Shown in pieces: positions 7,736-22,419 of a stretch of DNA of 64,000 nt. The stretch comes from a virus. Where the stretch lies: IMG/VR virus record IMGVR_UViG_3300046170_000505; one strand, 5' to 3'. The number at the start of each line of letters is the position of its first letter. Position 1 is the first letter of the stretch. The notes under the pieces are model-generated. The model had not been told where the DNA came from. It saw nothing but the letters and a program-made list of their open reading frames with translations, and ran no database searches. The translations under genes and the position numbers were made by a program.

Positions 7736-8566
7736 TTATTCAGGTCTTTTTCCTGTAGGTTTTCCGTCTTGACCTATCTCTCCAGCCCTAATTTTCGTGG
7801 CTGATACAGATTGAAGCTCTTTACTTAATTCAAGTTGTTCAATATTATAACCAACACCTCTTCCATAAAATACGTCGGTAATATTTGGAAGTTCAACAAC
7901 TTTAATTTTATCTCCAAATTCAACGCATGCGGCATGAATTTCGGCTTTTACTTTTTGAAAATCATACGGATTGCTTTCATCTATGCCAGCGACATCTCTT
8001 AATGCTATACAGCATTGACCTGTGCGCTTAACCGATTCTGCAACCAAAGTCTTATGCCCTACATGAAAAGGCTGATACCTGCCTATAAGAAGAGCTGTAG
8101 GAGCCTGATTGTTCCATTTTTCAGTTTCAAAAATGTTTTCTAATGCGGTTTCACACCATTCTTCTGGGGTGCCTTCTCTTAATATTAGGTCATGCTCGTC
8201 CCATCTTTCATCTTTTGTCGGGTCTTCAAAAAGTTTATTGGTGTCTTCGTATCTTCCTTCTTTTATTCTATCTACCCAAATTACAAAATCTGGATTAAAA
8301 GCTTCTCTAGTTTCTTCAGTTGGACAACAAAAGTCAGATATAACATATCCTCCCCCTAAAGCAGCCCAGTCTGAAAGCTTTCCCATTCTTCTAGCATGCT
8401 CTGTACGATCTTCTGCTGAGAACCCCAGGTCTTTGTGTATTTCTTGTCTCACTGCATCTGCATTGAACCAAACTGCGTTTAATTTAGCTACTAACTTTTC
8501 AGCTAGAGTTGTTTTGCCTGAACCAGGCAAACCCATAATAAGTATCTTGCGTTTAACTTTCATCAC
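7736..8566 (-). CDS. cysC: adenylylsulfate kinase fused to a C-terminal HxGH nucleotidyltransferase domain
   Basis: GLPGSGKTT P-loop; NADAVR..DLGFSAEDR; FCCPT..R; second domain GRYQPFHVGH..SATKIR. Confidence 0.85.
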   Translation of the reverse strand: MMKVKRKILIMGLPGSGKTTLAEKLVAKLNAVWFNADAVRQEIHKDLGFSAEDRTEHARRMGKLSDWAALGGGYVISDFCCPTEETREAFNPDFVIWVDRIKEGRYEDTNKLFEDPTKDERWDEHDLILREGTPEEWCETALENIFETEKWNNQAPTALLIGRYQPFHVGHKTLVAESVKRTGQCCIALRDVAGIDESNPYDFQKVKAEIHAACVEFGDKIKVVELPNITDVFYGRGVGYNIEQLELSKELQSVSATKIRAGEIGQDGKPTGKRPE

Positions 8567-8650
8567 CTATATATAAGTACATTCAAAAATTGAAAATGGG
8601 CAAAAAAAAGCTTGACTTTATTTCTTATATTTTATATTATCTCTACATTA

Positions 8651-8857
8651 ATGAGAATCATTAGAAGAAATATTATCAAAGGCAAAGATTCATTCTATGT
8701 CGTAACGAGAGATAATCGTAGGGTTGAGCCCCACAATTATAAAGCAAAATGGGAAGCCGAAGAGCGAGCTGATATATTAATAAATATGGTTAACAATTTT
8801 GATCCAAAATCAAAAGTGGCTATAGTTTATACTTCCATTCCAGAAAAAGTCAGATAA
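8651..8857 (+). CDS. hypothetical protein
   Basis: ATG downstream of TTGACT-17-TATTAT (8612-8640). Confidence 0.6.
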   Translation: MRIIRRNIIKGKDSFYVVTRDNRRVEPHNYKAKWEAEERADILINMVNNFDPKSKVAIVYTSIPEKVR

Positions 8858-9285
8858 TGAACGTAAAATATAAATTACTTAATGCATTAGCTTCACCCCC
8901 AGAAACAGCGAACACTGGAGATGCGGGTTTTGATTTAAAAGCTACGGCAATAACTTATCCATCTGAAGGCGTAGGTGTCTTTATCGAAGTCTGTACTGGT
9001 TTATCTTTTGAAATTCCTAGCGGATATGTTGGTTTAGTTTTTCCTAGATCTAGTATATCTAATACCAAGCATTTTCTTAGAAATTCTGTGGGCGTTATTG
9101 ATAGCGGCTATAGAGGTGAAATTAAATTAAGGTTTTCTATGGATGACAGTAACACCGCTTATCAAATCGGAGATAAAGTTGGCCAAATTGTTTTCCTTAA
9201 ATTGCCTAAAGTAAATTTAGTTCAATCAGAGGATTTGTCTTTAACTTCTAGAAATACAGGAGGGTTTGGTAGCAGTGGACAATAA
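8857..9285 (+). CDS. dut: trimeric dUTPase
   Basis: AGFDL, PRSS, GVIDSGYRGEI, Q, RNTGGFGSSG motifs I-V. Confidence 0.96.
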   Translation: MNVKYKLLNALASPPETANTGDAGFDLKATAITYPSEGVGVFIEVCTGLSFEIPSGYVGLVFPRSSISNTKHFLRNSVGVIDSGYRGEIKLRFSMDDSNTAYQIGDKVGQIVFLKLPKVNLVQSEDLSLTSRNTGGFGSSGQ

Positions 9286-9482
9286 CTTATTAAACTATTG
9301 TGCAAATAAATTCTGCCCATATATAATTATATCGTGTTTTTTATTTTATAATTCTGGGTTAGAGGTTTGGAAATCAATAATCATCTTAGGGATGTGTGTT
9401 TTTATTGAAAAATTTAATTTCAAGGCTGGATATAGCCTAGCTTATTGCGAATTAAATGGTATTGATTTAGATAACCAAAAAG

Positions 9483-9737
9483 ATGATTAAGACTTTGATA
9501 AATAAATTAAATAGTTTCTCTAATCGCGTAAGAAATAATTTCCACAAGTATTATATTGTTTACAGATGCCAAGATGGAAAGACGAAAACTTATATGGTGG
9601 GAGATATCAATCTTTACAATTCCTTCAGCAACAAAAACGAAAAAAGAGATAATGCAGGGTTCAAAGCTTATTGTTTTGCCCGAAAACAAATTCGTTCTTT
9701 CCGACATGATAGAATAGTATCGATCACTAAAAAATAG
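9483..9737 (+). CDS. stand-alone WYL-like domain protein
   Basis: Y..DG.....AYCFARKQIRSFRHDRI; paralogue of 57941..58171. Confidence 0.6.
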   Translation: MIKTLINKLNSFSNRVRNNFHKYYIVYRCQDGKTKTYMVGDINLYNSFSNKNEKRDNAGFKAYCFARKQIRSFRHDRIVSITKK

Positions 9738-9739
9738 TT

Positions 9740-10318
9740 TTGTTTGATTTAGTTTTACCCTCGTTATTACTAGCGAGTTTGGCTTTTTTTGCCTATTTTT
9801 ATTTTTCTCGTGTAAATAAAAACAGCTCCATTGATTTAGAGAAAATACTAGAGAGAGAACAAAAAACCAAAATAGAATTTGAAAAAAAACTTGAATTATT
9901 ACAAAACCAAGTTATTACTTTAAAAGAAAACAACGTAAAACTAGATTCATCTTATTTAAACTTAAACTCAAATTACAAAGATTTAGAATCAAGTTCCCTA
10001 AAAAATGTCAAATCCCTCGAAGAGCAACTCAGTGAATTATCAGAGGAAAAAAGAAAAATCGTCTCACAAAAGAAAAGTAGCGAAGTCAGGCTTGGTCACA
10101 TAGCCGAAACACTAGCTCCTTTTCTAGATCAATTCAACTTTAACCCAGAACATTGCATTTTCCTCGGAAGACCTATTGACTACATTTCTTTTGGAAGTAA
10201 AGAAATCACCTTTATTGAAATAAAAAGCGGCAAAAGCCAACTAAACTCAAAACAAAGATTAATTAGAGACCAAGTCCACAATAAGGAAGTAGCTTGGAAA
10301 GAGATTAGAATAATTTAA
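9740..10318 (+). CDS. membrane-anchored Holliday-junction-resolvase-like PD-(D/E)XK endonuclease
   Basis: N-terminal TM and coiled coil; G.IAE.LAPF..FLGRPIDYI..FIEIKSG..L...Q. Confidence 0.8.
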   Translation: MFDLVLPSLLLASLAFFAYFYFSRVNKNSSIDLEKILEREQKTKIEFEKKLELLQNQVITLKENNVKLDSSYLNLNSNYKDLESSSLKNVKSLEEQLSELSEEKRKIVSQKKSSEVRLGHIAETLAPFLDQFNFNPEHCIFLGRPIDYISFGSKEITFIEIKSGKSQLNSKQRLIRDQVHNKEVAWKEIRII

Positions 10319-10332
10319 CCCACAAACTAAAT

Positions 10333-10980: not shown

Positions 10981-11005
10981 TTTAAACCCCCAACAAACTA
11001 AAATT

Positions 11006-11245
11006 ATGGACAAAATCACAGAAACCTTAAAAGGCACCATCGGTGGTCTTTTTACATTATTAACCTCGGTCATTGGACTACTTGTATTAGCTTCAGTAGT
11101 CTTTGGCGAAAAAGCTGGAATGAATGTTATCAGCAATCTCCAGGGAATCGTCAATGGCTTTGTCGGCCCAGAGTCAAGCCTTGCAGGCCTCATTACTCTA
11201 GTATTGATTGTCGGCTTACTCATGAAGCAAAACGAAAAGAATTAA
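11006..11245 (+). CDS. small two-TM membrane protein
   Basis: Two hydrophobic helices. Confidence 0.7.
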   Translation: MDKITETLKGTIGGLFTLLTSVIGLLVLASVVFGEKAGMNVISNLQGIVNGFVGPESSLAGLITLVLIVGLLMKQNEKN

Positions 11246-11267
11246 TCTCTTTTAAATTTTGACGATT

Positions 11268-11298
11268 AGGGGGGCTTTTTAGCCCCCCTTTTTTTTTT
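11268..11298 (+). terminator. intrinsic terminator
   Basis: AGGGGGGCT-TTTT-AGCCCCCCT followed by a T run. Confidence 0.9.
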
Positions 11299-11357
11299 CG
11301 AAAAATTTTCCGCAGATTAAGTTGAAATACAGTGGACTATATATTATAATAGAAGAA

Positions 11358-12132: not shown

Positions 12133-12142
12133 TGGACTATAT

Positions 12143-12313: not shown

Positions 12314-12359
12314 ATTATCCTATTGACATGTATAGTTAAATATGTTTTAATATTTAGCA

Positions 12360-13229
12360 ATGAAAAGCAATCGAGGTCGAAAAAGAAAATCAATCCAAGG
12401 AAAATTGCGCAATCAAAACTTTTCCTTTGATCAATACTGGTGTCTGCATTTTACGGAAAAATATACAGACCAATCAGAAAAAGACTTTAAATGCATAATA
12501 AAGGCTAGGTCAGCTAACTTTGCAAGAAAAATACTCTCTTTAAAAATTAAAGAAGAGTATCCAAAGACTAAGATTAAGTCTATATCCTGTACAATGCTTC
12601 GAAAAAAATCCGAGATTAATACAAAAAAACTTACCTTAAAAGACTGGGATTGCGTAAAAAAATGCTCTTTTCCCAATGAAGTTAATATTTTATTCAAGCA
12701 TAATAACCCAAGACCCGATGGTTACACAAATAGATTTAACAGTCAATCTTCTCCAAAAAATGGTTTCCAAAAAGGAGAGGATGCGAGGAGGGCTCCTAAA
12801 AGAAAAATTTATACAAAAGAAGAAAAATCCCATATGCTATATGACGGTTCTTGGAAGCCTTGGCCTAAAAAAGATCGAGACGGTTTGTTAGAAAAATTAA
12901 TCATATCTTTCAAGCTTCATGACAATGTCCGATCAAAAGTTGCTAAAAACCTTGGGATAAGTATTAAAGAGCTTAAAAGCTTGCTTACTAAAAAATTCAT
13001 AGAAATTGACTGGGAAAAAGACTACCCAGTTTCTCGCGAAATAAAAGAAAAGCACAGGCTTCTTTTAAAAAAGGGCAGACAAGAAAAAACTTTGTCCCGC
13101 ATCCTAAAACTACAACATATTATAGAGGGATACATAACGTCCAATAAAACCAAAAAGTTCATGAAAGAATCACTAGGCATATCTCATGACTTTTTAAATA
13201 AGTGCATAAAGCATTATGAACTCAATTAA
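12360..13229 (+). CDS. basic putative HTH DNA-binding protein
   Basis: RSKVAKNLGISIKEL and KESLGISHDFL HTH-like segments. Confidence 0.5.
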   Translation: MKSNRGRKRKSIQGKLRNQNFSFDQYWCLHFTEKYTDQSEKDFKCIIKARSANFARKILSLKIKEEYPKTKIKSISCTMLRKKSEINTKKLTLKDWDCVKKCSFPNEVNILFKHNNPRPDGYTNRFNSQSSPKNGFQKGEDARRAPKRKIYTKEEKSHMLYDGSWKPWPKKDRDGLLEKLIISFKLHDNVRSKVAKNLGISIKELKSLLTKKFIEIDWEKDYPVSREIKEKHRLLLKKGRQEKTLSRILKLQHIIEGYITSNKTKKFMKESLGISHDFLNKCIKHYELN

Positions 13230-14106
13230 AGAAAATTTATTCAATGACTGGCTATCTGAATATCAATCAGACTTTGCAAAAATTGTCGGCAAACATAGAT
13301 TAGACAGGCACCCCCTTAGTGCTGAAGAAATTATTTCTGAAATAAATATTGGCATCTTGAAGAAAAAAGATTCCCTTATTTATGGGGAAGGTTCTGTTAT
13401 GGACTGCCATTCTACCTTTAAAAAGGTTGCTTATGCTTTTGCTAGAAATTTTGTTTCTTGGACTGCTGATGGAGTTAGTTTAAAAGATAAAAAATATCTC
13501 ACTTTAAGAAAGGATGGAGTTGTTTCTACAGAAGACGAAGGAGAAATTTCATTATTTGAATATGTTTCTCAAACTATTGGGTCCGAAGATCCTTTTTTCA
13601 AAAAATTTAACACTTCAAAAAAATTCAGTAATATCATGAAGTGGATTTTACAATACAGTGAATTTCTTAGCCCTCATCAAAAAAATCTACTGGAACTTGT
13701 TGTTTCGGGTCAGAAATTCAATGTTATAGCAGACTTAACAAATGTTACTCATCAAGCAATATCTGCAGCAATGATCGATATATTCGATAGCATTAAGAGT
13801 CATGTAAAAATAGATTTACTTGGCGATGGAAATGATGGTCAAAAAATAAAAGAAGGTCATGAATCAGTAAGATATCTTTTTGGAAAGGAAAGAGTTGCTG
13901 AACGTTCCTCAAACAAATCAGATTTAGATAAAATTTTAAGTCTGGTTGTGAATAATCCTAAAAAATTTACTGTTCACGATTTAGAGTCAAAGCTCAGTAA
14001 TCGCATGAGTGCTAAGCAAATTTGCGCATATTTATGCAAAAGCAAACATCACGAATTCTTAAAATATACCAGTAGGAGAAAAATCAGCGCTCAAAACAAA
14101 GCTTAA
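13216..14106 (+). CDS. sigma-factor-like protein (region-4-like HTH)
   Basis: LSPHQKNLL..G.KFNVIADLTNVTHQAIS. Confidence 0.5.
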   Translation: MNSIKENLFNDWLSEYQSDFAKIVGKHRLDRHPLSAEEIISEINIGILKKKDSLIYGEGSVMDCHSTFKKVAYAFARNFVSWTADGVSLKDKKYLTLRKDGVVSTEDEGEISLFEYVSQTIGSEDPFFKKFNTSKKFSNIMKWILQYSEFLSPHQKNLLELVVSGQKFNVIADLTNVTHQAISAAMIDIFDSIKSHVKIDLLGDGNDGQKIKEGHESVRYLFGKERVAERSSNKSDLDKILSLVVNNPKKFTVHDLESKLSNRMSAKQICAYLCKSKHHEFLKYTSRRKISAQNKA

Positions 14107-14121
14107 TGTGTACATTTATGC

Positions 14122-14349
14122 ATGAGGCTTTCAATAACTGAATTATTTTTATGCGGCGCAATATTTTTATTGTGTTTTTTGGTTTATAAAAATGGCTCTG
14201 AGTTGAATTACGCAAAAGAAACCATATTAATTCAAGGCGAAGCTATAACCAAACAGCAAGCCTTAATCAATCATCAAATCCGCTATATTCATATGCTGGA
14301 AGCCAACGAACAAAATAACTACAGCCCTGTTCACAAGCTTCCATTATGA
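14122..14349 (+). CDS. membrane-anchored hypothetical protein
   Basis: N-terminal TM; GTGTA-N9-ATG start. Confidence 0.6.
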   Translation: MRLSITELFLCGAIFLLCFLVYKNGSELNYAKETILIQGEAITKQQALINHQIRYIHMLEANEQNNYSPVHKLPL

Positions 14350-14735
14350 CCGTATTAGAATACTTAAAATCAAACTCTTATAAATCGATATTTAATTACA
14401 TACAAAAAGAATTCTACCCTTCAGACATTTATAAAAATGAAGAAATAATGTCTAAAGACATGTTCTTTCATAGATTGTATTTATCTTTATGTTCTTTAGA
14501 TATTGAACATTTAAGCAAGCACAAGTTGTATGTCACTCAATTTTACGACAAAGAAGAAAAAATTGACATTTGTGTTTTAGAAGAAATGGAAGATGCACTT
14601 TTGCCTTTAGATTTGTTTTCATGCAGCCAGCTTTTATCCTTAAACGTAGAAAAAGCTTTAAAAATAAAAGATTCAAATTGGTTGGCTTTTTTTATGTATA
14701 AAATTACTCAATTTAAAGTATCATTAAATCTATGA
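14346..14735 (+). CDS. hypothetical protein
   Basis: Translationally coupled ORF. Confidence 0.6.
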   Translation: MTVLEYLKSNSYKSIFNYIQKEFYPSDIYKNEEIMSKDMFFHRLYLSLCSLDIEHLSKHKLYVTQFYDKEEKIDICVLEEMEDALLPLDLFSCSQLLSLNVEKALKIKDSNWLAFFMYKITQFKVSLNL

Positions 14736-15247
14736 ACATGTATAACTTGCCCACCCATCCTCAAAGCCCAAAAATAGTTAGATCTGTTATTGAAATTGAA
14801 GAAGGGTCAAAAAATAAATATGAATACAACGGCGACCTAGGAGTATTTGAATATGATAGATGCCTGACTTCTGCCATGGTTTACCCCGCCAGTTATGGTT
14901 TTGTACCAAACACCTTATGTGATGACGGAGACCCTTTAGATATATTGGTTGTTAGCCCTGAACCCATAAAAAGAGCTACAGTTGTAAACACAAAGGTTTT
15001 AGGTGTTTTAGATATGGATGATGAAGGTGCCAAGGATTACAAAATAATTGGCGTACCAACTCATTATTCAAAAAAATATTATAACCTTAAAAGCTTAGAG
15101 CCAAGCTTCCTTCAAATTGCTAAAAATTTCTTCTCTCATTATAAAGATTTATCTCTTAGCGGCGAAAAAGTAAAAGTTTATCAATGGCACAGCAAAGATA
15201 TCGCTTTTGATATAATTAAAGAAAGTATAACAAAATGGACTCACTGA
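14732..15247 (+). CDS. ppa: family I inorganic pyrophosphatase
   Basis: NKYE; YPASYGFVPNTL; DGDPLDILV; DYKII; FFSHYK. Confidence 0.95.
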   Translation: MNMYNLPTHPQSPKIVRSVIEIEEGSKNKYEYNGDLGVFEYDRCLTSAMVYPASYGFVPNTLCDDGDPLDILVVSPEPIKRATVVNTKVLGVLDMDDEGAKDYKIIGVPTHYSKKYYNLKSLEPSFLQIAKNFFSHYKDLSLSGEKVKVYQWHSKDIAFDIIKESITKWTH

Positions 15248-15362
15248 TTGTTATTTTTGCGCTTGGCGTTCTTTATTTTATAGCTTGTAAAAACAAGTAT
15301 GAATGGGGAATAAGGTCTGTATTAAATAAAACAAGCCGCAAGTAAAAGTGTAATCCACTTAC

Positions 15363-16967
15363 GTGGATATCGATAAAATATTTGTTATAAATCTTAATGA
15401 CCGCAAAGATAAGTGGTCTAGTTTTGAAATTATACATGACAAAGTCGAAAGATTTGAGGCTGTTGACTCAAGAACAAATCAATTCATAAATAAAGACTTT
15501 AATTTAAAACTTTTCCCAGTCGGCTTAAATCAAGAAATTTATTTTTCTCAATTTCCTGGTGCAATAGGATGCTATTTAAGTCACTATTTGCTTTGGCAAA
15601 AGATAGTCAAAGAAAAAATACAGACTTCTTTAATTTTAGAAGACGATGCTAACGCTTGCGATGTAGATTATTTTTTAAAATCAAACCCTTCGTACTCAAA
15701 ACACTACGACTTAATACAACTAAATAAACGTAGCCCTAAAAACCCTCAATTTTTTAATGGTACTGAAAGTTATATTCTAACTTTAAAAGGCGCCAAAAAA
15801 CTTATTAATTTAACAAATAATCATTCTTGCTTCCAAGGATTATTTCGCTCTTTACCGCCAAGTAGAGCTGGCTATAACTATTCAAAATATGCTTGCTATA
15901 CACAAGAAGGTTCTCAAAATTGGTGTGAACCTAATTCTATTTGCGCAGCAGTTGATAGATTTATAGGCTTTTGTTCTTTCGAATCTATTTCATTTAGAAA
16001 TCGTTTAACAATTAATTTTGATCGGCGTATAGGTTTATCAAAATTAAATTCAGATTTAAAAACTGAAGATGTCAAACCCTACTGGCTGATGACTGAGAAT
16101 GAAACAAGTGCGTTCATTGATTCCAAAGATTTCAAATGGTGGGAAAATCAAAAGAGTATAAATAAATTTTTTGTAATAAATCTTGAAGACAGGCTGCATA
16201 GATATGAAGAATTTAAAAAAATTGGAGACATAGAGAGGTTTCCAGCTATAGATTCTAGGTCAAATTTTCACGTATATAAAGATTACGGTTTTGATCTAAA
16301 CTTAATGGGCTTAGCTAGTGACCTTTATTTTTCTCAAGCACCTGGAGCTGTAGGAATTTATTTAAGCCACTATTCTATATGGAAAAAGATGATTGAAGAA
16401 GATATCGAGCTTTGCATGATCATGGAGGACGATGCCGAGACTCAGGACGTTTCCGATTACTTGTCTAAAAATAATCAATTTGATATTGATAATTATGATT
16501 TTTTTCAGTTAGGTAAGCGTTGCTCAAACGAATTAAGAGAATATTGTGGAAATTTTGACGGTTTAGAATCTTATGTGCTGACAAAAAAAGGTGCTGAAAT
16601 ACTTGTTAATGCTACCCATGATAATTCTTATTTTAATAATATTATCCATATAAAACCAAAAGGCTGGTTTCAAGGCGAAAACCCAAAGAAGTTTGATATT
16701 TTTAAAGATGAACCGCGCCAATTATGGGATAAAAAAAACTCTATAGCCTGTGCTGTCGATAAATTTATAGGTTATTGCGCCCACCCTAAAATAAACGCTT
16801 CAAAAAGATTGAGAATTAAAATAATGCCCAGAATTAATTTGCATAGTCAAGAAGTTAGCTCTGATGTTATGAATTTGAAAGATGCGCCTTGGTGGAACAA
16901 GAGCGAAGAAGAATTAAATTCTTTTTTAAATTCTAAACAATTCAAATATTGGGAAAATGAATCCTAA
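15363..16967 (+). CDS. glycosyltransferase family 25, internally duplicated (two GT25 domains)
   Basis: FVINL..R..ERF.A.D..G..G.YLSH..W....EDDA occurs twice. Confidence 0.85.
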   Translation: MDIDKIFVINLNDRKDKWSSFEIIHDKVERFEAVDSRTNQFINKDFNLKLFPVGLNQEIYFSQFPGAIGCYLSHYLLWQKIVKEKIQTSLILEDDANACDVDYFLKSNPSYSKHYDLIQLNKRSPKNPQFFNGTESYILTLKGAKKLINLTNNHSCFQGLFRSLPPSRAGYNYSKYACYTQEGSQNWCEPNSICAAVDRFIGFCSFESISFRNRLTINFDRRIGLSKLNSDLKTEDVKPYWLMTENETSAFIDSKDFKWWENQKSINKFFVINLEDRLHRYEEFKKIGDIERFPAIDSRSNFHVYKDYGFDLNLMGLASDLYFSQAPGAVGIYLSHYSIWKKMIEEDIELCMIMEDDAETQDVSDYLSKNNQFDIDNYDFFQLGKRCSNELREYCGNFDGLESYVLTKKGAEILVNATHDNSYFNNIIHIKPKGWFQGENPKKFDIFKDEPRQLWDKKNSIACAVDKFIGYCAHPKINASKRLRIKIMPRINLHSQEVSSDVMNLKDAPWWNKSEEELNSFLNSKQFKYWENES

Positions 16968-17850
16968 AATCACTATAGCAATATGCACCTACGACAATTA
17001 TAAAATTTTGTCCATCTGTTTGCGTTCTTTACTAAACCAATCTTGCCAAAGGTTTTTTTATGAAATTTTAGTTTTAGACAACACTCCGCACAAAGACTCT
17101 ACCTATAAAAACGAATGTATTGATATCTGCAATACGTTTGGTTTTGTTTATTTAAACAAGGAAACAAACGGTTTATCTGGAGCCAGAAATGAATGCGTTA
17201 AAAACTGTCGCACAGATCTAATACATTTTATAGACGATGATACAGTTTTGCCTGCAAACTTTATAGAAGAGTCAATAAATTGTTTTTATCTAGATGAAAC
17301 TCTTGCTGCATTCGGAGGGAAAGTTGTTCCCGACTGGAGGTTTGTTGATCGCCCTGCTTGGCTTAGCGATGATTATTTAGGTTTTTTGTCCATGGTTGAC
17401 TTTGGTAATGATAAGAAAATTTTTGGAGATGGTTTTAATTGGCTAGCTGGAGCAAATATTTGTTTTAAAAAATCTGTTTTTGAAAACTATGGTTTTTTTG
17501 ATGAATCTTTGGGGAGAAAAGGCGGGACATCTAGCCTTCTTGGCGCCGAAGAGAATAATTTATTAAGAAACATGATCAAAAAAGAAAAAGTTATATACAA
17601 TCCATTTTCCATGCTTTCTCATATTGTCCCACCAGAAAGAGTTTGTCAATCTTGGTTTATTAAAAGAGCTTCCTGGGGTGTTGTTTCAGATATACTTATT
17701 AATTGCCCTTGGGGTTCTTACTCTAAAGATTTCCTTAAAGACAATATGCACGTGTTGTTAGAAGAAGCTCAAGATGAAGAAGTTTTTAAATTAAGAATGA
17801 AATTAGCCCATGAGTTAAATTATGGACTTTTAAAAACAGGATTATTATGA
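16957..17850 (+). CDS. glycosyltransferase family 2
   Basis: IAICTY; VLDN; GLSGARN; FIDDD; GANI; GAEE. Confidence 0.92.
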   Translation: MNPKITIAICTYDNYKILSICLRSLLNQSCQRFFYEILVLDNTPHKDSTYKNECIDICNTFGFVYLNKETNGLSGARNECVKNCRTDLIHFIDDDTVLPANFIEESINCFYLDETLAAFGGKVVPDWRFVDRPAWLSDDYLGFLSMVDFGNDKKIFGDGFNWLAGANICFKKSVFENYGFFDESLGRKGGTSSLLGAEENNLLRNMIKKEKVIYNPFSMLSHIVPPERVCQSWFIKRASWGVVSDILINCPWGSYSKDFLKDNMHVLLEEAQDEEVFKLRMKLAHELNYGLLKTGLL

Positions 17851-18503
17851 TTATATCGCACAAGCATAAGTTCATCTTTATTCATATTCCAAAATGCGCA
17901 GGAAGCACGATTTGTTATAGCTTGATAAACAATTTGTATTTAAAAAATTCTCCTCATAAAGGTAGTTTCAATCAATTAGATCCAAGTATAGCGGAAGTGT
18001 TTAAAGTAGTCGTAAATCAGGGCAATTCACATGAATTAAATCAACACGATACCCTGAAAGATATTAAAAGTTATCTAAGTAAAAAAAATTTAAACATCAA
18101 TGATTATTTCAAATTTTCGTTTATGAGAAACCCCTGGGAAAGAAGAGTATCACAATATTTCTATGCAAAAAGAATGGCAAAAAAAGATTTTGAGTGGGCA
18201 AAAAAAATTTCAGCAATATCATTTTATGAATTTATTACAAAACGAAATTCAGATTCACAATTAAATTGGGTGAGTGATAGAAAAGACAATATTGCAGTAG
18301 ATTTTTTGGGTTCAGGTAAAAATTTGCAAAATGAATTTAACGTTGTCTGTGAAAAAATAGGAATTTCACACATACAGCTCCCGTATAAGAATGTTACGAA
18401 GCATAAACACTACACCGAATACTATAATGACGAAACCCGCCAAATAGTCGCTGAAAAATGCGCAAAAGATATTGAGTATTTTAATTATGAATTTGGAGCA
18501 TAG
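17847..18503 (+). CDS. sulfotransferase (Sulfotransfer_2-like)
   Basis: FIHIPKCAGST 5'-PSB loop; RNPWERRVS 3'-PB motif. Confidence 0.9.
   Translation: MIISHKHKFIFIHIPKCAGSTICYSLINNLYLKNSPHKGSFNQLDPSIAEVFKVVVNQGNSHELNQHDTLKDIKSYLSKKNLNINDYFKFSFMRNPWERRVSQYFYAKRMAKKDFEWAKKISAISFYEFITKRNSDSQLNWVSDRKDNIAVDFLGSGKNLQNEFNVVCEKIGISHIQLPYKNVTKHKHYTEYYNDETRQIVAEKCAKDIEYFNYEFGA
18402..18488 (+). repeat. 87-bp exact direct repeat, copy 1
   Basis: Identical to 19011-19097. Confidence 0.9.
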
Positions 18504-18518
18504 AACAGAAAAAACAAT

Positions 18519-19112
18519 ATGAATAATAAAAAATTTTTACATACAATTTCAAGCAACATAATATGGTATCTTACACCGAAGTGTGGTAGTAGAACATTAC
18601 ATAATATATTCAGAAAAAACAATATAAACTTTCCAACTGAGAGATATGATCAAGTTCCAAACTTTGCTAAAAATTATTTTTCCTTTTCAATTGCCAGAAA
18701 CCCGTGGGATCGTTTGGTTTCTTGTTGGATGCAAAAAATAATTACACAAGAACCTACAGAGGAACAATTTAGAAGAGGCATTAGATGGGAACTAAATTAC
18801 CAAAAACCAAGTTTTAAAGATTTTATAAAAATAATTTCAGATGATGAAAATATCACAAAAGATAGTCATTGGGATCTATATTTTAATATAATTCCAGTAA
18901 GTGATATTGACTTCATTGGTCGTTTTGAAAACCTCCAACAAGACTTTGACATCATCTGTGACAAAATCGGAATTCCACAACAACAACTTCCACATAAAAA
19001 CAAAACAAAACATAAACACTACACCGAATACTATAATGACGAAACCCGCCAAATAGTCGCTGAAAAATGCGCAAAAGATATTGAGTATTTTAATTATAAA
19101 TTCGGCGAATGA
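18519..19112 (+). CDS. sulfotransferase (Sulfotransfer_2-like)
   Basis: PKCGSRT; RNPWDRLVS; FIGRFENL. Confidence 0.9.
   Translation: MNNKKFLHTISSNIIWYLTPKCGSRTLHNIFRKNNINFPTERYDQVPNFAKNYFSFSIARNPWDRLVSCWMQKIITQEPTEEQFRRGIRWELNYQKPSFKDFIKIISDDENITKDSHWDLYFNIIPVSDIDFIGRFENLQQDFDIICDKIGIPQQQLPHKNKTKHKHYTEYYNDETRQIVAEKCAKDIEYFNYKFGE
19011..19097 (+). repeat. 87-bp exact direct repeat, copy 2
   Basis: Identical to 18402-18488. Confidence 0.9.
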
Positions 19113-19732
19113 GCTACAAATATGTATCTTTAGTTTCCGACCAAGAGAAATATGTTTTCTACAAAATCTACAAATCTGGGTCTTCTACAATTTCTAAAAT
19201 ACTGCGCTCTCACACAGAAACTAGCTCATTGCCCTACAAAAAAGTTTTATTTAAAAACTCTATAGAGCAGTTAAATACATATCACCCCAACCTTGATCTA
19301 TATTTCAAGTTTGCTTTCGTAAGAAACCCTTGGGATAGACTAGTTTCACTATATTCAGAGAAAATAGTAAATCATAAAAAAACCATAAACAAGATTCCTT
19401 ACTACAAACAATTTATTGGTTTATCTTTTGAATCTTTCCTGGATCGAATAATTTATTCCGATTTAGAGACCTGTATTCCTCATCACCGTTTGCAAACCCA
19501 CCTTATGCCCCTGAACAAAATGAATTTCATAGGCAAATTAGAAAATTTTAATAAAGACATCCAAGTTGTATTTAATCATCTAAAAATTAAAAACTGCAAA
19601 ATTCAACACCTCAATCGATCCAAACATTCCCATTATTCTGACTATTATAATAACCGCTACAAAAAATTAGTTGAATCTAAATACGCAGAAGATATAGAAA
19701 ACTTTAATTACAGCTTTGACAAACGTGTATAA
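19109..19732 (+). CDS. sulfotransferase (Sulfotransfer_2-like)
   Basis: KSGSST; RNPWDRLVS; FIGKLEN. Confidence 0.9.
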   Translation: MSYKYVSLVSDQEKYVFYKIYKSGSSTISKILRSHTETSSLPYKKVLFKNSIEQLNTYHPNLDLYFKFAFVRNPWDRLVSLYSEKIVNHKKTINKIPYYKQFIGLSFESFLDRIIYSDLETCIPHHRLQTHLMPLNKMNFIGKLENFNKDIQVVFNHLKIKNCKIQHLNRSKHSHYSDYYNNRYKKLVESKYAEDIENFNYSFDKRV

Positions 19733-19753
19733 ATATATTATATAAATAACGAA

Positions 19754-20020
19754 ATGAGTTCCTCAGAAAGACCTTCGAAAGAAAATTTATCTAAAATTTT
19801 AGAGATGAATAAAGCTATAGTGCAGCTTTTACCCAAAGGCGATGCTATGCGTCTAATGTATGAAAAGATGACAACCAGACTCTCTGAACGGATAGAAACC
19901 TACGACCAATTTTACGTAAACCCCTATTCTACTCATACTTCTAACTTTTCTTATCACGGAGATAAAGATATTATAGAGCATGGCGGCGAATATATATCAG
20001 GAGATGACAGGTCCTACTAA
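19754..20020 (+). CDS. hypothetical protein
   Basis: ORF downstream of a TTGACA promoter. Confidence 0.55.
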   Translation: MSSSERPSKENLSKILEMNKAIVQLLPKGDAMRLMYEKMTTRLSERIETYDQFYVNPYSTHTSNFSYHGDKDIIEHGGEYISGDDRSY

Positions 20021-20498
20021 AATCAGAATGGAGGCAGTTTACCCCTTTATTCGCTCAAGCCCTTTAAATTTAAATTCAAATATTGATATTGTAAATTTTG
20101 ATTTCTCTAAAAACCACATTGAAGTATGGGAAAAAATACAGTTTGCAAGCGACGATTCATTAGATAAATCAGAAAAAAAATTTTTTACCAAACAATTCGG
20201 AGAGAATTTAGGGCTCGCTCCAGATAGGTTATTTTTTGCTGCGAATAAATTAACAGGAAACATTATAGGCGCTTGTGCGAGTTGGCTTAAAGGTGACCTA
20301 GGAAGAGTTCATTGGGTTGCCGTAGTTCCTGATTTTCAAGGCTTTGGGGTGGGAAATAATTTAATGCATGAATGCATTTTACGTTTCAAAAAATTAGATT
20401 ATAAGAAAGTTTATCTTCATACTTGGAGCGATAGAAATATAGCGATAAATCTTTATTTGAAGTTTGGGTTTAAAAAAGTAAATTTATCCTTGACCTAG
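19980..20498 (+). CDS. GNAT-family acetyltransferase
   Basis: VAVVPDFQGFGVG; AINLYLKFGF. Confidence 0.9.
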   Translation: MAANIYQEMTGPTKIRMEAVYPFIRSSPLNLNSNIDIVNFDFSKNHIEVWEKIQFASDDSLDKSEKKFFTKQFGENLGLAPDRLFFAANKLTGNIIGACASWLKGDLGRVHWVAVVPDFQGFGVGNNLMHECILRFKKLDYKKVYLHTWSDRNIAINLYLKFGFKKVNLSLT

Positions 20499-20529
20499 TT
20501 GCTATATTATGGTAGCCTTAGTGATTGTT

Positions 20530-20790
20530 ATGAAAATTACTAAAGAATTAAAAAAAGCAACCTTCGAATACGACGAAGAGACTAAAAAATTCCTCATAAT
20601 AGATGGCGAAGACGGAGGAGTTGTTGAATTAAACAAAGTTTATGCTTTTGCGTTTATGCGTTTCGTTGTTCGCATGGCTCAACGCAATTGGTTTAGAGTT
20701 AAAAAGGCTACTAAAGCCGAAACTTTTGAAGTTGAAGGTCAAGAAGACCCCAATCAAGTAAATTTTTTAGAATCATCTATTTATGAATAA
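20530..20790 (+). CDS. hypothetical protein
   Basis: ATG downstream of TTGACC-17-TAGCCT. Confidence 0.6.
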   Translation: MKITKELKKATFEYDEETKKFLIIDGEDGGVVELNKVYAFAFMRFVVRMAQRNWFRVKKATKAETFEVEGQEDPNQVNFLESSIYE

Positions 20791-21211
20791 AGACGACTCA
20801 ATAAGACCTTGGGGGCATTATGAGGTGCTCCTTGATACAGATTATTGTAAAGTAAAACGCATAGTAGTTAAGCCTGAACAAAGGCTCAGCTATCAGTATC
20901 ACCATTATCGCCAAGAAGCTTGGACTGTAGTTCAAGGCATCGCTAAGGTTACGCAAAACGATGTAGATAAGAATTATAAAGCTGGAGAGACAGCCCTTAT
21001 AGGTCTTGGTGATAAGCACAGGATGGCGAATCCAAGCTCGACTGACGATATGGTATTGATAGAAGTTCAAACTGGAACTTATTTTGGTGAAGATGATATC
21101 GTTAGACTAGAAGACGATTACGACAGACCAAAAGAGCACAAAATCGCTGATGTTAACTACCCACCTTACGAGTGGACAGAAGATGTTGAAGATGAAGAAG
21201 GTCGCAGTTAG
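20783..21211 (+). CDS. type II phosphomannose isomerase C-terminal cupin
   Basis: RPWG; LSYQYHHYR.E.W; HR..N; IEVQTGTYFGEDDIVR. Confidence 0.92.
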   Translation: MNKDDSIRPWGHYEVLLDTDYCKVKRIVVKPEQRLSYQYHHYRQEAWTVVQGIAKVTQNDVDKNYKAGETALIGLGDKHRMANPSSTDDMVLIEVQTGTYFGEDDIVRLEDDYDRPKEHKIADVNYPPYEWTEDVEDEEGRS

Positions 21212-21596
21212 TGGTTATTTTGATCCCATTCACGTGGGGCATTTAGAATATCTTCGTCTAGCTAAAGAGCTTGGTGATTATTTGATAGTGATCGTAAATA
21301 ATGACTACCAATGCGAGCTTAAAAAAGGCAAATCTTTTATGGCTGAAGAAGATCGTGTTGAGATCGTAAAAGCCTTAGGGATAGTTGATGAAGTTTTCCT
21401 TGCCGTAGATAAGGATAGAAGCGTATGCGCTTCTTTGGAACGCTTAAGGCCCGATATATTTGCTAATGGTGGAGACCGCAGCGTCGGTGAAATACCCGAA
21501 TCAAAAGTTATGGAAAAATATAATATTAAAATGGTTGATGGCTTAGGGGATAAGATAAGAAGCTCCTCAAGCTTAACAGGATTGAAAGAGAAATAA
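21192..21596 (+). CDS. cytidylyltransferase-like (TagD/RfaE2-type) nucleotidyltransferase
   Basis: SGYFDPIHVGH; KKG; FANGGDR; SSS. Confidence 0.88.
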   Translation: MKKVAVSGYFDPIHVGHLEYLRLAKELGDYLIVIVNNDYQCELKKGKSFMAEEDRVEIVKALGIVDEVFLAVDKDRSVCASLERLRPDIFANGGDRSVGEIPESKVMEKYNIKMVDGLGDKIRSSSSLTGLKEK

Positions 21597-22381
21597 TGCA
21601 AATAAATAAAACATTCATAGACAAACTATTGGTCTTTGGTAAAGAATTGGGGCAAGAAGTATTAGAAATTCAGCTTGATAAATCCAGCTTAGATGTTCAA
21701 ACCAAAAAAGATGATAGCCCTTTGAGTAGGGCTGACTTACATTCCAATAAAAGAATTAGAGCTTTTTTATCAGAAAACTCTGATGTTCAAAATTACATTT
21801 CAGAAGAAGACAAAGAAGTCTCCTATGAAGATCGTAAGAATTGGGGGTATTATTGGCTCATTGACCCCATAGACGGTACTAAGGAATTTATAAAAGGGGG
21901 TAGCGATTTCTGTATTAATATAGCTTTGTGCAAAGGTGACTCCCCTATTTTTGGTTATGTTGGATGTCCTGCTTTAGGTGATCAATATTACGCGATAGAA
22001 GGTAGGGGCGCATTTAAAAACAGTGAAAGAATTTTTTGCAATTCCATTGACCCTGATTCAAATACTTTAAATGTAGTTGCATCAAAGTCTCACATGAATG
22101 ATGAAACTAAAAATTTCATAGATAATCTTTCTGATTCTTTTGGGGTTGAACTTCTCAACGTGGGGAGCTCTCTCAAGTTCTGCATGTTAGCTGAAGGTAA
22201 AGCTGATGTTTATCCTCGCTTTGGCCCAACAATGGAGTGGGACACTTGTGCCCCCCAAATCATAGCTGAAGAAAGCGGTGCCGACGTTTTTATAGCTGAT
22301 AGCTTAGCGCCATTGACTTATAATAAAGAGAATTTACTTAATCCATTTTTTATTGTCACAAACACTACGTTGATACATTAA
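21596..22381 (+). CDS. cysQ: 3'(2'),5'-bisphosphate (PAP) nucleotidase
   Basis: SEE; WLIDPIDGTKEF; SKSH; GSSLKFC; YPRFGPTMEWDT. Confidence 0.95.
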   Translation: MQINKTFIDKLLVFGKELGQEVLEIQLDKSSLDVQTKKDDSPLSRADLHSNKRIRAFLSENSDVQNYISEEDKEVSYEDRKNWGYYWLIDPIDGTKEFIKGGSDFCINIALCKGDSPIFGYVGCPALGDQYYAIEGRGAFKNSERIFCNSIDPDSNTLNVVASKSHMNDETKNFIDNLSDSFGVELLNVGSSLKFCMLAEGKADVYPRFGPTMEWDTCAPQIIAEESGADVFIADSLAPLTYNKENLLNPFFIVTNTTLIH

Positions 22382-22419
22382 AATATTTATTTTTTTTAAA
22401 ATTTAGTTATAATATATAT

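What the first reader, a model, noticed from the sequence alone, without database searches (positions are those of the whole stretch)
7736..22381. Apparently self-contained phage PAPS cycle feeding a sulfated-glycan pathway
Seen: APS kinase fusion, Ppa, double GT25, GT2, three sulfotransferases, GNAT, PMI cupin, cytidylyltransferase and CysQ within 15 kb. Established: CysC makes PAPS, sulfotransferases release inhibitory PAP, CysQ hydrolyses PAP, and Ppa pulls the unfavourable nucleotidyl-transfer steps. Inference: the phage builds sulfated (possibly acetylated) glycans on its virion, on the host surface (superinfection exclusion) or on DNA. PVC bacteria are specialist sulfated-polysaccharide degraders, so a sulfated virion coat could act as a food-mimic lure.
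Basis: partly seen in the sequence, partly recalled or inferred. Interest (0 to 1): 0.8.

Follow-up and report, generated by a model that had tools for sequence, protein, structure and literature searches.

The report
Phage sulfation toolkit with compact PAPS-synthase candidate
A large uncultured marine phage and its relatives carry many sulfate-adding enzymes plus helper genes for the sulfate donor PAPS, including a 276-residue two-domain enzyme that probably makes PAPS unaided and whose second domain may be the ATP sulfurylase that SAR11 bacteria appear to lack.

Summary
The gene list is real. 14346-22381 is one tightly packed, same-strand block of soluble enzymes. The "APS kinase fusion" lies 6 kb away on the other strand.

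Six large relatives (100-220 kb contigs, three rated complete) all keep the fusion at 71-91% identity. Each has 5-11 Sulfotransfer_2 matches. The five searched have no canonical ATP sulfurylase, CysD or CysH. The glycosyltransferase/sulfotransferase block is a variable insertion into a conserved NTase-Ppa-CysQ core.

The fusion is an APS-kinase-like domain joined to a 120-residue NMNAT-like HxGH nucleotidyltransferase. In one relative it sits directly upstream of CysQ.

In SAR11 genomes the same nucleotidyltransferase lies beside APS reductase aprBA, where other Alphaproteobacteria have canonical Sat. That looks like non-orthologous displacement, and it supports sulfate adenylylation.

"Self-contained PAPS cycle" is therefore plausible (about 0.55) but has not been assayed. 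One complete relative with 10 sulfotransferases has no CysQ. Many phages carry the fusion without any sulfotransferase.

The acceptor is unknown: virion, host envelope or something else. The PVC-host and "food lure" ideas have no support.

Novelty: new variant of a known kind. Interest 0.72.

The parts
7736..8566 (-). 276-aa fusion: APS-kinase-like P-loop kinase (about 1-150) plus NMNAT-like HxGH nucleotidyltransferase (about 157-276). Candidate compact PAPS synthase.
   Evidence: Pfam and NCBIfam. Alignment to PAPSS1 APS kinase keeps the P-loop, D38, R40, the LGFS Phe and the EDR Arg. AF2 pLDDT 92. Foldseek and VIA rank APS kinases first, Z 17.4. GRYQPFHVGH, YGRGVGY and SATKIR motifs. 71-91% identical in six relatives.
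14346..14735 (+). Unknown 129-aa ORF whose end overlaps the Ppa start by 4 bp. It travels with the NTase-Ppa-CysQ core in relatives.
   Evidence: No Pfam or PHROG hit. 26-36% homologues just upstream of NTase/Ppa in L003-L005, L061 and L062.
14732..15247 (+). Family I inorganic pyrophosphatase (Ppa).
   Evidence: PF00719 E 7e-47. DGDPLDI signature. 55-79% identical and next to, or near, CysQ in relatives.
15363..16967 (+). Tandem double GT25 glycosyltransferase (534 aa). First gene of the variable insertion.
   Evidence: PF01755, two stretches. Both copies keep EDDA. Nearest solved chains are procollagen galactosyltransferase 1 and mimivirus R655. Found in only one relative flank, L009 at 41%.
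16957..17850 (+). GT2 glycosyltransferase, soluble.
   Evidence: PF00535 E 1.6e-16. AglG/HpsE-like by NCBIfam, below cut-offs. DDD motif and no TM segment.
17847..18503 (+). Sulfotransferase 1 (Sulfotransfer_2).
   Evidence: PF03567 E 7e-13. IPKCAGST and RNPWERRVS motifs.
18519..19112 (+). Sulfotransferase 2 (Sulfotransfer_2). Its 3' end is nearly identical to that of sulfotransferase 1.
   Evidence: PF03567 E 1e-18. phrog_3347. TPKCGSRT and RNPWDRLVS motifs. Identical 29-aa C-terminal stretch. 183-nt direct repeat.
19109..19732 (+). Sulfotransferase 3 (Sulfotransfer_2).
   Evidence: PF03567 E 7e-16. YKSGSST and RNPWDRLVS motifs.
19980..20498 (+). GNAT acetyltransferase.
   Evidence: PF00583 E 3e-14. 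No homologue in relatives' flanks.
20509..20790 (+). Conserved 93-aa ORF of unknown function.
   Evidence: 52-60% homologues beside CysQ or the fusion in L002, L004-L009, L011 and L059. No family hit.
20783..21211 (+). Stand-alone cupin domain of type II phosphomannose isomerase.
   Evidence: PF01050 E 4e-32. TIGR01479 positions 358-466. 68-82% identical in relatives.
21150..21596 (+). 148-aa HxGH adenylyl/cytidylyltransferase, RfaE-domain-II-like. Part of the conserved core with Ppa and CysQ.
   Evidence: TIGR02199 77 bits, below the 181.5 cut-off. phrog_7878. HVGH motif. Contiguous with Ppa and CysQ in L003, L004 and L061. Only distantly related to the fusion's NTase domain.
21596..22381 (+). 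CysQ-type 3'(2'),5'-bisphosphate nucleotidase (PAP phosphatase).
   Evidence: TIGR01331 220.6 bits, full length. PF00459 E 5e-46. DPIDGT and WDT motifs. 53-67% identical at the syntenic place in 10 IMG/VR contigs.

Best explanation
This phage lineage runs its own sulfation system.

Shown:
- It encodes several PAPS-type sulfotransferases with intact donor-binding motifs.
- They are packed with soluble glycosyltransferases, a GNAT and sugar-nucleotide enzymes.
- The block is inserted into a conserved core of a small nucleotidyltransferase, pyrophosphatase and CysQ.

Inferred:
- The conserved 276-aa fusion supplies the donor. Its NMNAT-like domain adenylylates sulfate (ATP + sulfate -> APS + PPi).
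- Its APS-kinase-like domain phosphorylates the 3'-OH of APS to give PAPS.
- Ppa pulls the first step by removing PPi.
- The sulfotransferases move sulfate onto a carbohydrate acceptor built or modified by the GT25/GT2 enzymes in the cytoplasm.
- CysQ removes the inhibitory product PAP.

The sulfotransferase/glycosyltransferase cassettes differ between close relatives. The product is therefore probably a surface glycan under diversifying selection: a decoration on virion proteins, or a change to the host's envelope glycan precursors. The acceptor was not identified.
For: 1. Family assignments and intact catalytic or donor motifs for all enzymes.
2. Genes 14346-22381 overlap or abut and have no TM segments.
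3. Five relatives found through CysQ have the fusion at 80-91% identity and 5-11 Sulfotransfer_2 matches each. They have no PF01747 or PF01507 and no second APS-kinase-like gene. A sixth relative, complete at 222 kb, has the fusion at 71% and 10 sulfotransferase matches.
4. Ppa and CysQ are adjacent in L003, L011 and L061, and they bracket sulfotransferase cassettes in L005, L008 and the window.
5. The fusion is immediately upstream of CysQ in L010 (stop 9998, start 10001). It is also adjacent to a CysQ homologue in an alphaproteobacterial genome, L035. In two other viral contigs a canonical PUA-Sat-APS-kinase protein holds the place next to CysQ, with TauE, a sulfotransferase or a GT25 nearby.
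6. The kinase domain is closest to APS kinases by sequence (profile E 1e-17) and by fold (Z 17.4, against NRK1 at 11.0 and dephospho-CoA kinase at 10.3). The family conserves the P-loop, D37, R40, F49 and R54.
7. NTase domain in 61 Pelagibacteraceae genomes: 21 of 22 AprB-positive genomes have it and only 2 of 22 have Sat. In 9 genomes it lies 1-4 kb from aprB. In 7 of those it is there without the kinase. Locus L140 reads MFS, kinase, NTase, TenA-like, unknown, AprB, AprA, unknown, TauE.
8. All 9 AprB-positive Alphaproteobacteria outside SAR11 have canonical Sat, mostly 1-4 kb from aprB. None has this NTase.
9. A 2023 preprint states that most SAR11 lack ATP sulfurylase (10.1101/2022.09.23.509140).
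Against: - No activity was measured.
- By sequence the NTase domain is nearest to NMN adenylyltransferases (MJ0541, E 5e-11; NCBIfam). It does not hit the ATP-sulfurylase model.
- The kinase matches only the first 60% of the APS-kinase model and has a shortened lid. DGD reads NAD, and the score is far below the TIGR00455 cut-off.
- The fusion family is much wider than sulfation. At least 447 IMG/VR relatives exist, and 75 distant ones have no sulfotransferase, CysQ or Ppa within 10 kb. Four large distant contigs have none anywhere.
- Xylella and Xanthomonas Casjensviridae phages carry it next to a COG3236-type gene (NADAR family, from my own knowledge).
- 29 of 61 SAR11 genomes have it but only 2 have Sulfotransfer_2.
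- One complete sulfotransferase-rich relative has no IMPase-family gene at all, so CysQ is dispensable.
- The SAR11 co-occurrence test is not corrected for phylogeny.
- The fusion is not part of the operon in this window.
Confidence: 0.55

Rival explanations
1. The fusion has nothing to do with sulfation. It would be a NadR-like NAD salvage enzyme (kinase plus NMN adenylyltransferase), or it would make another 3'-phospho-adenylyl compound. The sulfotransferases would then use PAPS made by the host, and CysQ and Ppa would be general helpers.
For: The NTase domain's best sequence matches are NMNATs, and phrog_3462 NMNAT is a weak hit. Casjensviridae phages carry the fusion next to a COG3236-type gene (NADAR family, from my own knowledge) and without a convincing sulfotransferase. 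Most fusion-bearing viral contigs lack sulfur genes nearby.
Against: The kinase is APS-kinase-like in sequence and fold and stands well above nicotinamide riboside kinase. The acceptor-site Arg and Phe residues are conserved. The NTase sits beside aprBA and TauE in SAR11 and replaces Sat there. It is adjacent to CysQ in L010 and L035.
Confidence: 0.2
2. There is no common pathway. The region would be a patchwork of independently acquired accessory cassettes that happen to lie near each other in this genome.
For: The components are scattered in relatives. The GT25, GT2 and GNAT genes are absent from most relatives' flanks. The sulfotransferases look like mobile cassettes with a shared 3' end. 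The fusion is on the other strand, 6 kb away.
Against: Fusion and sulfotransferases co-occur in all six large relatives. Ppa and CysQ are neighbours across the lineage, and sulfotransferase cassettes repeatedly land between them. The genes in 14346-22381 overlap like an operon. Unrelated viral contigs show the same logic with canonical enzymes.
Confidence: 0.1
3. The cysC-like and cysQ genes are assimilatory-sulfur auxiliary genes that raise host cysteine or methionine supply, as proposed for viral cysC and cysQ. They would not serve the sulfotransferases.
For: Kieft et al. list viral cysC (mostly marine and freshwater) and cysQ as organosulfur auxiliary genes. The fusion is widespread in phages without sulfotransferases.
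Against: Five relatives, three of them rated at least 90% complete, have no PAPS reductase or CysD family gene. Sulfotransferases are the only PAPS users found, at 5-11 matches per genome. The closest cellular homologues are in SAR11. The papers read here describe its assimilatory sulfate reduction pathway as incomplete, and most of the genomes sampled lack ATP sulfurylase.
Confidence: 0.1
4. The glycosyl- and sulfotransferases modify phage DNA (hypermodified bases) rather than a glycan on protein or lipid.
For: A dUTPase, a dNMP kinase and nucleases lie nearby. All the enzymes are soluble and cytoplasmic. A nucleoside deoxyribosyltransferase-like gene sits next to the fusion in L010.
Against: Sulfotransfer_2, GT25 and GT2 members are annotated as acting on carbohydrates or proteins. 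No base hydroxymethylase was seen in the region. The nearest solved GT25 relatives are protein or lipooligosaccharide glycosyltransferases.
Confidence: 0.05

Closest known systems
Bifunctional PAPS synthases (Sat-CysC fusions: human PAPSS1/2, Aquifex 2gks, and the viral 584-586 aa proteins in L015 and L016)
   Same: One polypeptide joins an HxxH-superfamily nucleotidyltransferase to an APS-kinase fold. It is a genomic partner of CysQ. The motif order HxxH, GR(D/G), (I/V)S(G/A)TxxR is colinear with Sat in L015/L016.
   Different: 276 aa instead of about 580. There is no PUA domain and no PF01747 match. The NTase is NMNAT-like and about 120 aa. The kinase comes first and has a shortened lid. The activity has not been tested.
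Viral cysC and cysQ auxiliary metabolic genes (Kieft et al., bioRxiv 10.1101/2021.01.05.425418)
   Same: APS-kinase-like and CysQ genes on marine and freshwater viral genomes, including roughly 200-kb phages.
   Different: That work reads them as assimilatory sulfur metabolism and never mentions sulfotransferases. Here the lineage has 5-11 sulfotransferase matches per genome and no reductase, and the 'cysC' is a two-domain fusion.
Bacterial sulfated-glycan loci (rhizobial NodPQ/NodH, recalled from memory; sulfated capsule locus of Cobetia marina, PMC11766843)
   Same: Dedicated PAPS supply genes combined with sulfotransferases and glycosyltransferases to make a sulfated surface glycan.
   Different: Those loci use canonical CysDN/CysC. 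Here the genes are on a lytic-type large phage, with a non-canonical activation enzyme and with sulfotransferases in swappable cassettes.
Virus-encoded glycosylation machineries (chloroviruses and Megavirinae, PMC10117803; glycosyltransferase clusters of pelagimyophages, PMC7029224)
   Same: Large viruses carry soluble glycosyltransferases and sugar-nucleotide enzymes in variable islands. These are thought to decorate virions or alter the host surface.
   Different: Neither paper was found to describe sulfation. The pelagimyophage paper has no occurrence of 'sulfotransferase' or 'sulfat'. The Megavirinae paper was seen only as a search row and was not opened.
Campylobacter jejuni phosphoramidate donor pathway (Cj1416 nucleotidyltransferase plus Cj1415, an APS-kinase homologue). 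Recalled from memory, not checked here.
   Same: A nucleotidyltransferase makes an NDP-X compound. An APS-kinase homologue then phosphorylates its 3'-OH to give a PAPS-like group donor.
   Different: The nucleotide, the transferred group and the NTase family all differ. It shows that an APS-kinase fold does not by itself prove sulfate chemistry.
NadR / NadM (NMN adenylyltransferase fused to a kinase or Nudix domain)
   Same: The GRxQPxHxGH and SxTxxR motifs of the NTase domain, and fusion to a P-loop kinase.
   Different: The domain order is reversed. The kinase is APS-kinase-like, not AAA_28/NRK-like. The genomic partners are aprBA, TauE and CysQ rather than NAD genes.

Membership tests
APS kinase (CysC, PF01583 / TIGR00455) | P-loop GxxGxGK(S/T) | tested here: met
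   GLPGSGKTT at residues 12-20. G12, G17 and K18 are invariant in 50 family members.
APS kinase (CysC, PF01583 / TIGR00455) | DGDxxR and LGFSxEDRxENxRR acceptor-site motifs | tested here: inconclusive
   The sequence reads NADAVR and LGFSAEDRTEHARR. The second Asp, both Arg residues and the Phe are kept across the family. The first Asp is Asn here, the ENxRR Asn is His, and many members read DWDFSxxGR.
APS kinase (CysC, PF01583 / TIGR00455) | Full-length match above the curated cut-off, including the lid (KGLY) | tested here: not met
   Only model positions 5-91 of 152 match. TIGR00455 scores 47.9 against a cut-off of 138.7. There is no KGxY, whereas the canonical viral proteins have it.
APS kinase (CysC, PF01583 / TIGR00455) | APS-kinase fold | tested here: met
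   AF2 pLDDT 92. APS kinases rank first in Foldseek (E 5e-8) and VIA (Z 17.4, rmsd 2.6 over 129 residues). Gluconate kinase is tied within 1 Z.
ATP sulfurylase (Sat, PF01747) | Match to the ATP-sulfurylase model, with the QxRNPxHxxH motif and the PUA domain | tested here: not met
   No PF01747 or PUA_2 hit for the fusion, and none in five relatives' contigs. The motif reads GRYQPFHVGH.
ATP sulfurylase (Sat, PF01747) | Works like Sat: genomic partner of APS reductase or APS kinase | tested here: met
   The NTase lies 1-4 kb from aprB in 9 SAR11 genomes. 21 of 22 AprB-positive SAR11 genomes have it and only 2 of 22 have Sat. All 9 AprB-positive non-SAR11 Alphaproteobacteria have Sat and none has this NTase.
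NMN adenylyltransferase (archaeal / NadM type) | GRxQPxHxGH and SxTxxR motifs | tested here: met
   GRYQPFHVGH at 162-171 and SATKIR at 255-260. Profile hit to MJ0541, E 5e-11, over the N-terminal half only.
NMN adenylyltransferase (archaeal / NadM type) | Full-length match above the curated cut-offs | tested here: not met
   NF003786 scores 29.8 against 397. TIGR01527 scores 20.5 against 181.
CysQ 3'(2'),5'-bisphosphate nucleotidase | Full-length match to the CysQ equivalog, plus IMPase metal motifs | tested here: inconclusive
   TIGR01331 scores 220.6 against 228.8 over positions 4-249 of 250, just under the cut-off. It scores far above HisN, SuhB and Hal2. DPIDGT and WDT are present. PAP specificity was not assayed.
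Sulfotransfer_2 (PF03567) PAPS-dependent sulfotransferases | Pfam gathering score, plus the 5'-PSB (PKxGxT) and 3'-PB (RxPxxRxxS) motifs | tested here: met
   49.8, 68.6 and 59.6 bits against a cut-off of 22. The motifs are present in all three.
Family I inorganic pyrophosphatase | Pfam match and the D-x-D-P-x-D signature | tested here: met
   PF00719 scores 159.5 bits. DGDPLDI. The NCBIfam equivalog scores 147 against 200.
GT25 glycosyltransferases | Pfam match to both halves | tested here: met
   PF01755 scores 111.6 bits in two stretches. EDDA is present in both halves.

The most novel reading that the evidence does not exclude
The roughly 120-residue NMNAT-like nucleotidyltransferase is a previously unrecognised type of ATP sulfurylase. 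Fused to a trimmed APS kinase it would form the smallest known PAPS synthase (276 aa). That enzyme would feed the lineage's sulfotransferase repertoire, and its family is carried by hundreds of uncultured phage contigs. On its own, beside aprBA, it would be the 'missing' ATP sulfurylase of SAR11 sulfite oxidation.
Probability: 0.4. Interest if true: 0.85.

Novelty: new variant of a known kind. Interest (0 to 1): 0.72.

Why it matters
- Sulfation by bacteriophages is essentially undescribed. Full-text searches found viral cysC and cysQ reported only as sulfur-assimilation genes, with no link to sulfotransferases.
- A phage lineage with up to about ten sulfotransferases per genome and its own donor supply points to sulfated glycans on marine virions or infected cells. 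That bears on host recognition, superinfection exclusion and the fate of viral organic matter.
- The comparative result on the nucleotidyltransferase makes a standing gap directly testable with one small protein: what handles APS in SAR11, most of which lack ATP sulfurylase.
- A 276-aa PAPS synthase would also be a handy tool for enzymatic sulfation.

Tried and rejected
- Nucleotide search of 14700-22400 against 50,697 phage records found no match.
- The search for related loci with the GT25 protein in IMG/VR found nothing.
- An exact 40-mer from the window is not in IMG/VR, and no whole genome is held. The phage's own remaining genome could therefore not be searched. Relatives were used instead.
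The contexts of distant fusion homologues came from the search for related loci instead.
- Neighbours of the fusion in 75 distant viral contigs were 2OG-Fe(II) oxygenase, SNase, CHAP, HSP20 and unknowns. A tblastn query with the Xylella phage Bacata COG3236 protein found nothing in any of the 80 fusion-bearing viral loci. None of this gave a functional clue.
- Extra-domain fusions: DUF4118-kinase-NTase (P0122) and DUF4118-kinase (P0187, P0206), noted but uninformative. One chorismate-synthase fusion is probably an artefact.
- ORFs 12360-13229, 13216-14106 and 14346-14735 have no Pfam or PHROG hit. The ESM Atlas was queried for 12360-13229 only and gave only weak HTH-like leads. I treat the first two as not part of the system.
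- phmmer of sulfotransferase 2 against PDB sequences gave no meaningful hit.
- The VIA wide search listed the NTase domain only once (PPAT, Z 10.0), because the kinase domain filled the list. That says nothing about other folds.
- The idea that the small RfaE-like NTase (21150) is a paralogue of the fusion's NTase was rejected. hhalign gave probability 38% over the HxGH region only.
- DUF1501 as a host marker: found in 3 of 61 SAR11 genomes. The host remains unassigned.

Full report
**What the window is**

The window is from a large tailed phage.
- It carries rIIA/rIIB (48446-52202), a clamp loader and two UvdE-like endonuclease genes, all matching phage families.
- It has about 70 mostly same-strand ORFs of at least 100 aa, a tRNA-Cys and a predicted tmRNA, and about 33% G+C.
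- No whole genome is held. It has no nucleotide-level relative among 50,697 deposited phage records.
- IMG/VR holds at least ten syntenic relatives of 40-214 kb, and further ones were found later.

**The observation**

The list, in order:
- an APS-kinase-like/nucleotidyltransferase fusion, 7736-8566, minus strand;
- Ppa, 14732-15247;
- a double GT25, 15363-16967;
- a GT2, 16957-17850;
- three Sulfotransfer_2 genes, 17847-19732;
- a GNAT, 19980-20498;
- a PMI-type cupin, 20783-21211;
- an RfaE-domain-II-like nucleotidyltransferase, 21150-21596;
- CysQ, 21596-22381.

The sulfotransferases keep both PAPS-binding motifs. Ppa and CysQ keep their metal-site signatures. From 14346 to 22381 the genes overlap or abut, with a single 115-bp gap, and none has a membrane segment. 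This stretch is therefore one operon-like block of cytoplasmic enzymes.

The fusion is not in that block. It lies 6 kb upstream on the other strand. The genes in between are a dUTPase, a resolvase-like nuclease, a dNMP kinase and unknown ORFs.

**What relatives show**

A tblastn table of window proteins against the relatives' flanks shows a conserved core: an unknown ORF, the small NTase, Ppa and CysQ.
- In L003, L011 and L061, Ppa lies next to CysQ.
- In L005, L008 and the window, sulfotransferase or glycosyltransferase cassettes lie between them.
- The 5.8-kb GT25/GT2/sulfotransferase/GNAT block of the window is therefore a variable insertion.

Whole-contig searches of five relatives gave these results:
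- The fusion is present once in each, at 80-91% identity. That is more conserved than CysQ, at 62-67%.
- Each has 5-11 Sulfotransfer_2 matches scattered along the genome.
- None has an ATP-sulfurylase match.
- None has a CysD/CysH-family match.

Three of these contigs are rated at least 90% complete. A sixth, complete relative of 222 kb has the fusion at 71% identity and 10 sulfotransferase matches but no IMPase-family gene. CysQ is therefore helpful rather than obligatory.

An earlier unchecked note (e1-5740213) reports three more sulfotransferase-like domains and about ten glycosyltransferases elsewhere in this same genome. I could not verify that.

**The fusion protein**

Kinase half:
- It aligns to APS kinases over the P-loop and the acceptor site. 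GLPGSGKTT, NADAVR and LGFSAEDRTEHARR correspond to GLSGAGKTT, DGDNIR and LGFSPEDREENVRR of PAPSS1.
- In a 50-member family alignment the P-loop, D37, R40, F49 and R54 are 90-100% conserved.
- The lid is shortened, and the match stops at model position 91 of 152.
- The AlphaFold model is confident, pLDDT 92. APS kinases rank first by Foldseek and by the independent aligner, Z 17.4.
- In the same search gluconate kinase scored 16.5, nicotinamide riboside kinase 11.0 and dephospho-CoA kinase 10.3.

NTase half:
- It carries GRYQPFHVGH, YGRGVGY and SATKIR.
- By sequence it is nearest to archaeal and NadM NMN adenylyltransferases.
- It does not match the ATP-sulfurylase model.
- The order of its three motifs is the same as in the canonical Sat domains of two viral contigs, with shorter spacers. 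Both families belong to one superfamily, so this is only suggestive.

**Genomic company of the fusion**

- In relative L010 the fusion ends 2 bp before the CysQ start.
- In a marine alphaproteobacterial genome (L035) a CysQ homologue is also its direct neighbour. That genome has one Sulfotransfer_2.
- In two unrelated viral contigs, one of them a giant-virus bin, the place beside CysQ is held by a canonical PUA-Sat-APS-kinase protein. It is flanked by a TauE-family transporter, with a sulfotransferase or a GT25 nearby.

Viruses therefore do assemble PAPS modules. In this phage lineage the 276-aa fusion holds the position that a PAPS synthase holds elsewhere.

**The SAR11 test**

The closest cellular homologues of the fusion (42-57% identity) are in Pelagibacteraceae. 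There the two domains are usually adjacent separate genes, in ordinary chromosomal context.

In 61 sampled Pelagibacteraceae genomes:
- 29 have the pair or the NTase at E <= 1e-40.
- 2 have Sulfotransfer_2.
- 3 have Sat.
- 22 have AprB.
- 21 of the 22 AprB-positive genomes have the NTase, against 8 of the 39 AprB-negative ones. Fisher p = 9e-9, not corrected for phylogeny.
- In nine genomes the NTase lies 1-4 kb from aprB. In seven of these it is present without the kinase.

Locus L140 reads MFS transporter, kinase, NTase, TenA-like, unknown, AprB, AprA, unknown, TauE.

Outside SAR11, a sample of 251 Alphaproteobacteria gave nine AprB-positive genomes.
- All nine have canonical Sat, in six of them 1-4 kb from aprB.
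- None has the NTase domain. The profile hits there cover only the kinase part.

This is the pattern of non-orthologous displacement: the small NTase stands where Sat stands. The literature read here says that most SAR11 lack ATP sulfurylase although AprAB is core and under strong purifying selection. I found no paper that proposes this NTase for the role. The library does not include most subscription journals.

One of the 61 genomes (G055) is unpublished. It contributes one count to the cell without the pair and without AprB, and no claim depends on it.

**Limits of the PAPS-synthase reading**

- The fusion family is far wider than sulfation. At least 447 IMG/VR relatives exist.
- The 75 distant relatives have no sulfotransferase, CysQ or Ppa within 10 kb. 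Their neighbours are generic accessory genes.
- Four large distant contigs have no sulfotransferase or CysQ anywhere.
- Cultured phages carry the fusion too. Stenotrophomonas phage DLP_6 also has a sulfotransferase, far from the fusion.
- The Xylella and Xanthomonas Casjensviridae phages have it beside a gene annotated COG3236 / GTP cyclohydrolase II. I recall COG3236 as the NADAR family. They have no convincing sulfotransferase.

So the enzyme is a general phage accessory gene that the sulfotransferase-rich lineage also depends on. Alternatively its product is broader than PAPS. An NAD-type or other 3'-phospho-adenylyl product is not excluded.

**What the system does**

The shown parts are the gene families, the intact motifs, the operon-like packing, the conservation across the lineage and the variable cassettes. 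The inferred mechanism is as follows.
1. The fusion makes PAPS, with the NTase forming APS and the kinase phosphorylating it.
2. Ppa removes PPi, which pulls the unfavourable first step.
3. The sulfotransferases sulfate a carbohydrate made or extended by the GT25/GT2 enzymes. Sugar-nucleotide input may come from the cupin and the small NTase.
4. CysQ removes PAP.

All the enzymes are soluble. The acceptor must therefore be reachable in the cytoplasm: virion proteins before assembly, or lipid-linked envelope precursors.

Close relatives differ in their cassettes, and sulfotransferases 1 and 2 share a near-identical 3' end. This suggests recombination-driven turnover, as expected for a surface structure under diversifying selection. 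I cannot tell virion from host envelope. DNA modification seems unlikely.

**Comparison with what is known**

- Viral cysC and cysQ have been catalogued as sulfur-assimilation auxiliary genes without any mention of sulfotransferases.
- Glycosyltransferase islands are described in pelagimyophages without sulfation.
- PHROGs already contains families for the fusion ('kinase', phrog_10255), the sulfotransferase (phrog_3347) and the small NTase.

What appears new is the reading of these parts as one phage sulfation system. Also new is the candidate non-canonical sulfate-activating enzyme, and its link to the SAR11 gap.

Nothing here supports a PVC host or a food-mimic lure. The DUF1549/DUF1553 and DUF1501 genes are real. 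DUF1501 is rare in SAR11. No host assignment was achieved.

**Verdict**

- It is a new variant of a known kind.
- Interest is 0.72.
- The decisive experiment is a simple enzyme assay and mutant complementation with one 276-aa protein.

Noticed in passing
L140:2322-8843 and L139:3902-8550 (Pelagibacteraceae genomes G012 and G036): In SAR11 a stand-alone NMNAT-like nucleotidyltransferase, sometimes with an APS-kinase-like gene, sits in a cluster with aprB, aprA and a TauE sulfite exporter. It is a candidate for the ATP sulfurylase that most SAR11 are said to lack.
   Followed up: yes
L015:7886-20133 and L016:4504-13920 (IMG/VR contigs, one a giant-virus bin): Viral contigs with TauE-family transporter, CysQ and a canonical PUA-Sat-APS-kinase protein side by side. 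A Sulfotransfer_2 (L015) or a GT25 (L016) lies nearby. This looks like a canonical-enzyme version of a virus-encoded PAPS module.
   Followed up: partly
window 18319-18501 and 18928-19110: Sulfotransferases 1 and 2 are divergent over most of their length but share a 183-nt repeat at the 3' end (83% overall). It encodes an identical 29-aa C-terminal stretch. This suggests gene conversion or cassette exchange.
   Followed up: partly
window 2759-5942: Adjacent DUF1549/DUF1553 (698 aa) and DUF1501 (357 aa, E 7e-85) genes on a phage. DUF1501 was found in only 3 of 61 Pelagibacteraceae genomes.
   Followed up: partly
window 2406-2802: ARAGORN predicts a tmRNA with a long basic tag. Its 3' end overlaps the TTG start listed for the DUF1549 ORF at 2759.
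   Followed up: no
window 1264-2367 and 30344-31333: Two genes match the same phage endonuclease family (phrog_8420). The first matches much more weakly (E 2e-13 against 6e-39).
   Followed up: no
P0122, P0187, P0206 (metagenomic proteins): Some relatives have an N-terminal DUF4118 membrane domain fused to the APS-kinase-like domain. In P0122 the nucleotidyltransferase follows too. These are membrane-anchored versions of the enzyme.
   Followed up: no
L026:6565-7741 (Xylella phage Bacata) and L027:4998-5729 (Stenotrophomonas phage DLP_6): Cultured phages carry 36-42% identical single-gene homologues of the fusion. In Bacata it overlaps a COG3236-type gene (NADAR family, from my own knowledge). 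DLP_6 also has a sulfotransferase 90 kb away.
   Followed up: partly
G075 (IMGVR_UViG_3300021964_009390, 222,461 bp; locus L063): A complete relative with 10 Sulfotransfer_2 matches and the fusion has no IMPase/CysQ-family gene at all.
   Followed up: partly
L010:16293-20773: Beside a sulfotransferase, this relative carries Exostosin/GT47-like, PhyH dioxygenase-like and TylF O-methyltransferase-like genes. The lineage's glycan-tailoring repertoire therefore goes beyond sulfation.
   Followed up: no
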